DNA of 64,000 bases from Eledone cirrhosa (taxonomy: Eukaryota): NCBI GenBank assembly GCA_964016885.1, contig OZ024750.1, positions 30,504,001-30,568,000 on the forward strand, given 5' to 3'. The stretch's first letter is position 1. The number at the start of each line of letters is the position of its first letter. Shown here piece by piece: positions 51,201-61,696 of the stretch. The translations under genes were made by a program, and so were the position numbers. The notes under the pieces were generated by a model that did no database searches, was not told the origin of the DNA, and worked only from the letters and a program-made list of their open reading frames with translations.

Positions 51201-54200
51201 TTACGAAGCTTTAATTTCTGAGTTCAAATTCTGAGGTTAGCTTTGCCTCTCATCCTTACGGGGTCGATAAAATAAAATACCAATAATGCACTGGGGTAAT
51301 TGCTGGCCTTGTGCCAACAAGTAGAAACAATTATATTATGGAACCAGCACTACCTCATTTCAACATTAGGGCATGTGTCCTTTGCTTGGCTGGAAGGAGA
51401 GTGGGAGTTAGTGCGGAGCATGAGACTGGAGTGTAGGCTAACTGTTGCTTGCCAGAGACAGGCTGGCCTTAAGGGAAGTGGGTAACATTAGGTGGTATTG
51501 ACCAGTTCTCATGGCTTTCTATGCTGGCATGTTTGGGTGATGAAATGTGGGAGGTAATGAGTGAAATAGACAGAAAGAACAATAGGAGAAATATAAGACA
51601 GAGTGGAAGAGATATAAAAGTAGACATTGACTTTGAAGTAAAATATAAGTGAAAGAAATGAAAATCAGAGTCTGTATCATCATCATCATCATCATCGTTT
51701 AACGTCCATCTTCCACGCTAGCATGGGTTTGGACAGGAATTTTCCCACTTAGAATAACAAGAGAAAATGAGACATTAAACAAGGCAGGGGATGACAAAGA
51801 AAACTAAAGCATGTATAAGAGAGAATGGCAGGGGTGAAGGGAGAGTGAGAGTGAGAGGGGTGGAAAGAGTGAGAGAAAGTGACAGTGGTGAAGGAGAGTG
51901 AGAGATGGGTGAAGGGAGAGTGAGAGAGGGGTGAAGGGAGAGTGAGAGAGAGTGACAGGGGTGAAGGGAGAGTGATGGTGAAATGAAAGAAGCAACACAT
52001 AGTAACTCCTATCATAGAAATAGTAAAACATGCTGAAGTTAAATAAAGAAGGGCTGGAAATAGAAAAGATAAAAGCCATTGGAAAGGTGACTAAAATTAG
52101 CTGTAAATATATCACTTTCGATAAATATATATACCTGAATATATTGGAAATGTTATTTTTGAAGCTGGTTTTACTTCTGGATAAATGAAAAAATAAGTAA
52201 ATACAATCATCCTTGAAATAAAAATATTTGGATTTAGTAACTCATAACATCCTCTACCACATGAGCTACATTAACACAACATTCTTGAAAAATACAAAAC
52301 ATCACTATGACTACATCACATTAACTCTTAACATTCTGCATGTGTATATCATGACTCATGCACTGTTCATTTTCCTGATGTTTGTACATTACCCTATGTA
52401 CTATACATACACTTTTTGATGAGTTGTGGTGCACCTGAGCACTGTTCACAATATTTCAATATTATTATCATTATTCTATACCACATGGTGTACATTAGCA
52501 AGACATTCTTGAAAAGTACAAGACCGCATTCTACATCACATTAAAAACTGAAAACTGTATTTTAGTTTACTGTAAATTTTAACAATGATCTGTACAATAG
52601 TAAATATACTATAGACATTTTTATAAACAAACCTGTTTTTAGATACTTTATTTTCAAACATTACAGGATGTTATGAGTGAAGGAAGAGAATGTTCTACAT
52701 TAACTCTGCCTCATATCTTCCATCATTTGTGAAAAAAGTTGCCAAATAACCCTTCCCTCTCTCTCTCTCTCTCCCCATATATATATAAACATTGAGCAAT
52801 GTACTAACCTGTAAATGGAGTTGTGGAAACCGTTGTAGTGGAGCTAATTCCTTTTAATTAAAAGAAAGAATGTTAAGGTTATAAAGTAAATTAATTTGAT
52901 ATTACATATAAATAATAGCAATATGAAACTAATTTCAGATTACTCTTGAAAGATATTGTAAAGGAACTGTTTAAATTGGAAATGAATAGTTGTACTTCTG
53001 CTTTTTTTACTGCATTTTTGAGATGAGAAATTATCAACAAAATACACTGATATATTCAGACCAGTGTCATTATTTTGGTTGTTATAGTTACACTGTTCCG
53101 ACTCCTTGACTCTGGTCATCTGCATAATAAAAATGCAACCGAATGCCACAGAACTCCAGTGGTCATCAGCCCTCGGGGTGAACTTTGGCATTTTCGCCTG
53201 CTACGAATGCTACTGCTAATCTTCCCCGTGTCACAGTGTCTGACACAAGCAACAGTACTGCATCTCAGCAGTATTTTGGAATTCAGGTTCACATGTTTTT
53301 TAATTTGGTGATCTCTATGGCTTCAGCAATACACAGCTAGCACTTCCTCTGGGCCGGAGATTCAGATTTTGCATGTTTAACCAAACTCCTGTACAACCTG
53401 AATCCGGTTTGCGAGTCTTTAAGTCTCCATAAAGGTATCGTATTGCTGTAGCCGTGGAGATCACCAAATTAAAAAAAGTAGTGAACCTGAATGCTGAAAT
53501 ACTGCTGAGCTGCCGACATGCCAGAAACACAACATTCTTGGTCCTAGCATTCAAGAATACCAACCCAACAAATGCTATCTACAATTTAAATACTATTGTT
53601 TCAATTCATTTCACTTCATATATTCACCTTATTCATCAATCCCAAACAATCACTTTTCATGGATCTCACTCAATTTCACCTTATTTCATTTTATTTATTT
53701 CATTCCATTCATTTTATTCCTTATCCCTTTTCATCTCATCTCACCTAACTTCAAACAGCTCCATTCCTAAAACATAAAAACTTAAACACCAATTGATACC
53801 TGCCATTCATATTCGACCTCACCATCTCTACCTTTGCCACCTACCCCTTCATCTTCTACTTTACCATCACCACCATCATGATCATCACAATCTTATTCAC
53901 CAAAAACAACACAACCACCACCTCTTTCCCTCACTTCTATGCTTACCATTATCCTTCATACCAATATGGCACCACCTGTCATTCTACTGGCAGCAAATTC
54001 ATGCTGACCACTGTTTTAAATAATTGTTTCAACTTTTGGCACAAGGCCAGTAATTAGCCAGTGCATTACTGGTACTTTATTTTATCAACCCCGTAAGGAT
54101 GAAAGGCAAAGTCAACCTCGGCGGGATTTGAACTCAGATCGTAAAGGGACGTAACTATGCTGGAAAGCATGCGTCCGACCCTCTACCGATACTGCCAATT

Positions 54201-61696: not shown

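What the first reader, a model, noticed from the sequence alone, without database searches (positions are those of the whole stretch)
52135..61696. Second mode of mucin expansion: alternating 42-nt symmetric microexons amplified by a 4.4-kb exon-intron cassette duplication
Seen: each 4.4-kb unit carries just two 42-nt phase 1-1 exons ([30 protein letters not shown]). Both end in TTT ACA G, which suggests a common ancestor. The unit adds 28 aa per 4.4 kb along with its SINE and LINE cargo. The terminal A copy (52135) is diverged ([14 protein letters not shown]) but keeps its length and splice sites, which suggests selection. Inference: symmetric phases allow combinatorial exon skipping and copy-number variation, similar to micro-exon genes. 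The gene would then lengthen its glycosylated stalk by both intra-exon VNTR growth and exon duplication. None of these exons appears in the ORF track.
Basis: partly seen in the sequence, partly recalled or inferred. Interest (0 to 1): 0.72.

Follow-up and report, generated by a model that had tools for sequence, protein, structure and literature searches.

The report
Octopod mucin with duplicated spliced mini-exons
An octopus-type mucus-protein gene carries a 4.4-kb block with two 42-base exons copied four and a half times; spliced contigs from one likely RNA run join these exons in frame and skip the last one, but together they add only about 2% to the predicted sugar-coated region, and the design is known from other animals' mucins.

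Summary
Real, and spliced. The array has 4 full 4.4-kb units plus a partial one (it runs 8 kb past the window), with 5 B and 4 A copies of the 42-nt phase 1-1 exons, flanked by diverged B0 (51 nt) and A0. It lies between the LDLa exon and an 18.2-kb PTS exon of a SCO-spondin-like VWD mucin gene. Contig depth in three DNA-like runs is about 5 times the flanks, so it is not a false duplication. A and B are not shown to be homologous. The array adds 126 residues to about 6,060. Four of four paralogues examined carry their own, unrelated exon arrays at the same position, three with a repeated globular domain. Exon-encoded mucin repeats are in print (chicken Muc13, schistosome SmPoMuc), and this scan noted the design before on other DNA of this genome and in a sea urchin. 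New member of a known kind.

The parts
52135..52176 (-). A0: diverged 42-nt phase 1-1 exon-like copy; skipped in the one RNA-like run tested
   Evidence: no cover and a B-to-giant join; 9 of 14 residues differ from A
52809..52850 (-). B1: 42-nt exon B, one replacement change (S to I)
   Evidence: B sequence spliced (copy of origin not resolved)
56288..56329 (-). A1: 42-nt exon A
   Evidence: full A sequence between two B parts, table 5c
57218..57259 (-). B2: 42-nt exon B
60725..60766 (-). A2: 42-nt exon A
61655..61696 (-). B3: 42-nt exon B
52339..64000 (.). Tandem array, part inside the window. It continues to 72068 in extended numbering: 4 full units of about 4.4 kb and one 2,033-bp partial unit, also holding A3 65177-65136, B4 66107-66066, A4 69617-69576 and B5 70547-70506. 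Further out lie an orphan intron remnant (72162-72608), the diverged 51-nt exon B0 (74574-74524) and the LDLa exon (75851-75709).
   Evidence: depth about 5 times flank; LDLa above Pfam cut-off and exactly covered by an X4 contig
29225..47405 (-). Giant PTS exon, 18,181 nt, 6,059 open codons (T 45.5, S 17.9, Q 16.9, P 16.5%), ending in a short domain conserved in two paralogues
   Evidence: its first 30 nt joined to B
2155..24552 (-). 3' exons: TSP1 and TIL domains (cystine-knot-like last exon lies just left of the window)

Best explanation
The exons are real, spliced, in-frame PTS mini-exons of an octopod SCO-spondin-like VWD mucin gene, multiplied likely by unequal crossing-over of a 4.4-kb exon-intron unit, and they are predicted to form a short O-glycosylated linker of variable length between the LDLa domain and the giant PTS region. 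Shown: array, five-fold depth, B-A-B and B-to-giant joins, open frames. Inferred: an older duplication of an ancestral B-A pair left diverged copies at both ends (B0, A0); the middle A-B unit then expanded and was homogenised; since every exon is phase 1-1, any gain, loss or skip keeps the frame, so the array is tolerated and close to neutral. A0 is likely a rarely used or retired copy.
For: Exact B-A-B contig and B-to-giant loose end matching the giant exon's first 30 nt. X4 contig covering the LDLa exon end to end with no mismatch and 79 nt beyond, as expected for B0 plus 28 nt (those letters were not shown). Unit contig depth 29-42 against 3.3-9.7 in flanks, ratios 8.0, 4.2, 4.9, pooled 5.4; 8 of 8 differences listed inside the unit's unique part fall on between-unit variant columns. 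Variant sharing between units switches along the unit (U1 with U4, U2 with U3, then U2 with U4), as recombination between units would give. VWD, C8, TIL, LDLa, TSP1 and EGF above Pfam cut-offs. 4 of 4 paralogues examined have exon arrays after LDLa.
Against: All splice evidence is from one run whose type is not on record, as assembled contigs at depth 6-15; contigs cannot say which B copy is used or how many units one mRNA holds. The DNA-like runs may be the assembly's own sample. The likely Octopus vulgaris orthologue model (P0001) has no LDLa or PTS block at all. Signal peptide, secretion and glycosylation were not tested. A versus A0 shows about 1 synonymous to 11 replacement changes, which sits poorly with pure neutrality.
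Confidence: 0.8

Rival explanations
1. Regulated combinatorial splicing: each mRNA includes a different subset of A and B copies (and sometimes A0), giving selected linker-length or glycosylation variants, as in micro-exon genes.
For: A0 is skipped. Contig depths give about 2.4 B and 1.4 A passes per LDLa-side entry, against 5 and 4 in the assembly. A versus A0 and B versus B0 exons differ more than their near flanks (12 of 42 v 16 of 221, P = 0.0003; 9 of 40 v 16 of 284, P = 0.001).
Against: The tool states that contig depth cannot rank parts of a gene; sample S2 may simply have fewer units. No B-B, A-A or A-to-giant join was listed (only A0 and B1 were in the stretch, and tables were cut: 3 loose ends and 44 pieces not shown). 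Copies within a class are identical but for one change, so skipping would vary length only, by at most 2% of the PTS region. Against mid-intron divergence the exon excess is not significant (P = 0.15).
Confidence: 0.3
2. The cassette is a stripped remnant of a family-wide spacer-plus-domain cassette: the ancestor had short PTS exons between F5/8-like domains, this gene lost the domain exons, and the leftover spacer pair was amplified.
For: Paralogues on C10, C5 and C2 repeat short PTS exons together with a globular domain (56, 22 and 31 domain loci); the O. bimaculoides protein P0003 has LDLa, short PTS, domain, short PTS, domain.
Against: A profile of 35 domain copies finds no remnant in the focal gene (best E = 2.3); no DNA homology between units beyond short matches that look like interspersed repeats. 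No family tree was built, so loss versus never-present is open.
Confidence: 0.35
3. Assembly artefact: one unit written several times.
For: Units are 98.9-99.8% identical.
Against: Five-fold depth and between-unit variants in the contig sets of three runs; a B-A-B join needs at least two B copies; units differ in length and carry private and mosaic variants.
Confidence: 0.03

Closest known systems
Chicken Muc13 (Lang et al. 2006, PMC1552070; passages read)
   Same: PTS repeats encoded one per exon, near-identical exons; the paper already proposes length change by both recombination and splicing.
   Different: Transmembrane SEA mucin whose PTS domain is all multi-exon; here a VWD mucin with a two-exon unit in front of one giant PTS exon.
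Schistosoma mansoni SmPoMuc (Roger et al. 2008, PMC2576457; passages read; author name recalled)
   Same: A short mucin exon (27 nt) amplified with its introns as a tandem unit (about 1 kb, up to 20), concerted evolution, introns more alike than exon types.
   Different: One exon per unit, the repeats are the main mucin part, and polymorphism was shown across individuals; here two exons per unit and 2% of the PTS region.
Invertebrate SCO-spondin-like gel-forming mucins (Lang et al. 2016, PMC4948705; passages read; author name recalled); Octopus vulgaris mucin-2-like X1 (P0001) and O. bimaculoides SCO-spondin-like (P0003)
   Same: VWD-C8-TIL units, LDLa, TSP1, C-terminal cystine knot; P0001 matches 24 segments of the focal gene at 39-76% from start to end.
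   Different: P0001 lacks the LDLa-PTS block; the F5/8-like domain seen in paralogues is absent from the focal gene.
Schistosome micro-exon genes, MEGs (review PMC4015677; passages read)
   Same: Short symmetric exons, exon skipping.
   Different: In MEGs micro-exons make up to 75% of the coding sequence; here about 2% of one region, in near-identical copies.

Membership tests
Gel-forming (VWD) mucin, SCO-spondin-like | N-terminal VWD-C8-TIL units | tested here: met
   One exon each of VWD, C8 and TIL above Pfam cut-off; P0001 with three VWD matches maps along the gene
Gel-forming (VWD) mucin, SCO-spondin-like | Large PTS domain | tested here: met
   6,059 open codons, 80% P+T+S; 5' end spliced; full-length transcription not tested
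Gel-forming (VWD) mucin, SCO-spondin-like | LDLa and TSP1 domains; C-terminal cystine knot | tested here: met
   LDLa and two TSP1 exons above cut-off; cystine knot E = 0.0017, below cut-off, 59% identical to the end of P0001
Gel-forming (VWD) mucin, SCO-spondin-like | Signal peptide, O-glycosylation, polymer formation | not tested
   First exon not mapped; biochemistry not testable here
Exon-encoded mucin repeat array (Muc13 / SmPoMuc design) | PTS repeat units on short symmetric exons amplified with their introns | tested here: met
Exon-encoded mucin repeat array (Muc13 / SmPoMuc design) | Copy number varies between individuals | tested here: inconclusive
   DNA depth from one sample only; RNA ratio from a second sample is a weak hint
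Micro-exon genes (MEG) | Most of the coding sequence in micro-exons | tested here: not met
   126 residues against 6,059 codons in the giant exon alone
Micro-exon genes (MEG) | Many isoforms by combinatorial skipping | tested here: inconclusive
   One skip (A0) seen; no other skip listed, tables cut

The most novel reading that the evidence does not exclude
The stretch after the LDLa exon is a recurrent expansion site in octopod SCO-spondin-like mucins: five paralogues each built a different exon-intron array there independently, cassette exons grow into long VNTR exons (45 nt to 861 nt within one array), giant PTS exons arise that way, and splicing sets the number of units per mRNA.
Probability: 0.3. 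Interest if true: 0.65.

Novelty: new member of a known kind. Interest (0 to 1): 0.42.

Why it matters
It is a compact, RNA-supported case of how phase-symmetric mini-exons let a mucin gain length by whole exon-intron duplication, caught at 4.5 units beside paralogues with 20-56 units. The family gives a natural series for asking whether single giant PTS exons grow out of cassette exons. It also suggests that annotations of these octopod mucins can miss the whole middle of the protein. For this gene alone the effect on the protein is small.

Tried and rejected
No RNA holder listed; X4 was read as RNA from its spliced joins. Protein searches with the LDLa exon and the post-PTS domain found nothing, so no orthologue model containing A or B peptides was obtained; all 3 searches are spent. 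The representative search returned general VWD proteins; 3 of the 152 stored proteins matched the LDLa exon and none the post-PTS domain. joint tables were swamped by repeats (2,024 rows not shown), so B0 joins were not seen directly. Homology of A and B: rejected as unproven (donor-side flanks 11 of 300 shuffles, marginal). Positive selection on A0: not established (P = 0.14 for at most 1 synonymous change of 12; P = 0.15 against mid-intron). My first reading of the C10 and C2 paralogue arrays as pure PTS-exon arrays was wrong: they include domain exons. The paralogue domain has no Pfam hit (2 of 2 exons); F5/8-like rests on an atlas lead at 0.85. No tree was built. Literature: no paper with octopus + microexon + mucin; nothing relevant in the listings; one search gave mucus proteomics and one unrelated paper. 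The library lacks most subscription papers; no supplements were read.

Full report
Setting. The window is G000:C10:30504001-30568000 of a 3.0-Gb genome. The best named protein matches are octopus proteins at 69-74% identity, so the animal is likely an octopod other than those species. A minus-strand gene spans at least 155 kb: EGF, VWD, C8 and TIL exons, one LDLa exon, the mini-exons, an 18,181-nt PTS exon, TSP1 and TIL exons and a cystine-knot-like last exon (10 of 12 exons scanned had a Pfam hit, 9 above cut-off). The O. vulgaris protein P0001 matches 24 segments along it. This fits the SCO-spondin-like invertebrate mucins of PMC4948705 (passages). Coordinates above 64000 below are window numbering extended into the fetched flank.

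The six exons in the finding are present with canonical AG and GT ends. With flanking DNA the gene order is LDLa, B0 (51 nt), B5, A4, B4, A3, B3, A2, B2, A1, B1, A0, giant exon. All are phase 1-1, and three test chains translated without a stop (3 of 3). The array spans 52339-72068: four units of 4,409-4,440 bp and a 2,033-bp partial unit, 0.23-1.13% apart. Sharing of variants switches along the unit, which points to unequal crossing-over or conversion (inference).

Not a false duplication. Runs X1-X3 (type not on record; read as DNA because contigs run through introns; one sample, possibly the assembly's own) give contig depths of 29-42 in the five-copy part (7 pieces) and 3.3-9.7 in the flank (17 pieces): ratios 8.0, 4.2 and 4.9, pooled 5.4. 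The tool warns that contig depth is no copy number, so this is support, not a measurement. All 8 differences listed in the unique stretch of that part coincide with between-unit variant columns (98 further rows of that table were not shown).

Splicing. Run X4 (second sample, type not on record) behaves as RNA: a 566-nt contig covers the LDLa exon exactly with no mismatch and then leaves the genome. It carries 79 nt on the 3' side, which equals B0 plus 28 nt, where a 31-mer path would meet a second incoming join; the letters were not displayed, so use of B0 is inferred. On window 52085-52905, one contig reads B, the whole of A, then B at the predicted sites (depth 8.7); a second has B followed directly by the first 30 nt of the giant exon (compared); a 44-nt B contig has depth 14.7 and one mismatch to B1; A0 has no cover. 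So A and B are spliced, and A0 is skipped by a contig that joins across it. Which B copy joins the giant exon is not resolved. Entry depth is 6.0 and exit depth about 6.4 by subtraction, giving about 2.4 B and 1.4 A per transcript against 5 and 4 assembled. That is a weak hint of skipping or of fewer units in that animal.

A0 and the edge copies. A0 differs from A at 12 of 42 bases and 9 of 14 residues, about 1 synonymous to 11 replacement changes; near flanks differ at 16 of 221. B0 versus B shows the same pattern (9 of 40 v 16 of 284). But paralogous mid-intron DNA differs at 60 of 321, so the A exons are not significantly faster than that background (P = 0.15) while the flanks are slower (P = 0.0001). 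Flank constraint or conversion explains this as well as selection on the exon. An orphan intron piece at 72.2 kb, 97.9% like the stretch 5' of A0, stops short of an acceptor: a further A-type copy was likely deleted. A and B share 23 of 42 bases (P about 0.05) and no acceptor-side flank homology; common origin is unproven.

Size of the effect. Nine array exons encode 126 residues, 2.1% of the giant exon's 6,059 codons. The second mode of expansion is real but minor here.

Paralogues. A search with one VWD exon gave 6 other loci; I examined 4, and all 4 have exon arrays after their LDLa exon. C10, 330 kb away: 55 copies of a 69-nt exon alternating with a 90-, 111-, 132- or 174-nt exon in units of about 2.0-2.1 kb, with 56 copies of a globular domain. 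C5: 21 PTS exons and 22 domain copies in a 5,777-bp dimeric repeat, then long PTS frames. C2: 26 57-nt and 25 45-nt candidates and 31 domain loci, still open at the end of 150 kb and containing one gap. C26: 60 candidates of 33 or 36 nt, 4 domain loci and a 5,609-codon PTS frame. Antisense controls gave 0 in both regions tested. One unit from each of four arrays (C5 left out) was compared: 3 of 6 pairs share nothing, 2 share short matches that look like interspersed repeats, 1 shares 31 nt, so the arrays likely arose separately. In C2 one copy of the 45-nt exon has grown to 861 nt with the same start, end and donor. None of these arrays was tested for splicing. The domain is F5/8-like on an atlas lead only; PMC4948705 calls F5/8 characteristic of lophotrochozoan mucins (passage). 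The focal gene has no trace of it.

Mechanism. Shown: array, depth, joins, frames. Inferred: an ancestral pair of spacer exons was duplicated once, the middle unit then expanded by unequal exchange, and phase symmetry made each change harmless. Predicted: a short O-glycosylated linker whose length varies in 14- or 28-residue steps.

Known cases. Chicken Muc13 (passages) and SmPoMuc (passages) already show exon-encoded mucin repeats, the latter with the same exon-plus-intron unit and concerted evolution. In-frame splicing within a gel-forming mucin's PTS region is reported for chicken MUC2 (PMC3549977, passages), and splicing polymorphism for Xenopus FIM-C.1 (PMC7177656, one passage). SCO-spondin-like and mucin proteins occur in octopus skin mucus (PMC11431876, passages). 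I found no paper on these octopod arrays. Earlier notes of this scan describe the design on other DNA; I read them after making the Muc13 and SmPoMuc comparisons and did not check them.

Verdict. Observation confirmed, interpretation partly supported, new member of a known kind, interest 0.42.

Noticed in passing
G000:C10:30797000-30912300 (L023-L031, L042-L045): Neighbouring paralogue with about 55 tandem 2.0-2.1-kb units, each two PTS exons plus a two-exon F5/8-like domain; the 69-nt exon is identical in 54 of 55 copies; predicted to encode roughly ten thousand residues if all are included.
   Followed up: partly
L064:765-1625 (G000:C2:401569765-401570625): An 861-nt exon with the same start, end and donor flank as the array's 45-nt exon: internal VNTR growth of a cassette exon; its repeat resembles the focal giant exon's repeat.
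   Followed up: partly
G000:C26:13552526 and 13540036: Two PTS frames with the same 5' end, 210 and 5,609 codons long: duplicated cassette with very different VNTR growth, after about 60 exons of 33-36 nt.
   Followed up: partly
G000:C5:67489000-67548000: About 21 three-exon domain-plus-PTS cassettes in a 5,777-bp dimeric repeat at 99.6-99.7% identity.
   Followed up: partly
L002:5089-5185 and window 20225-20472; protein P0001: The O. vulgaris model runs from the half-VWC exon straight into the later TSP1 region, omitting LDLa, PTS, two TSP1 and a TIL; both focal exons end in phase 2, so the whole mucin block could be skipped in frame, or the model is incomplete.
   Followed up: no
window 24968-25958: Intron rearrangement: a 311-bp direct repeat (96.8%) with a 142-bp inverted copy (96.5%).
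   Followed up: no
window 11996-15930, 16883-17850, 18313-18742, 3824-5959: Intronic minisatellites of 41 bp (89 copies), 39 bp (25), 53 bp (8) and 29 bp (11 and 23).
   Followed up: no
window 53260-53513, 57669-57922, 62106-62359: A 254-bp element with 74-bp terminal inverted repeats (86%), MITE-like by form, carried in each unit within the window.
   Followed up: no
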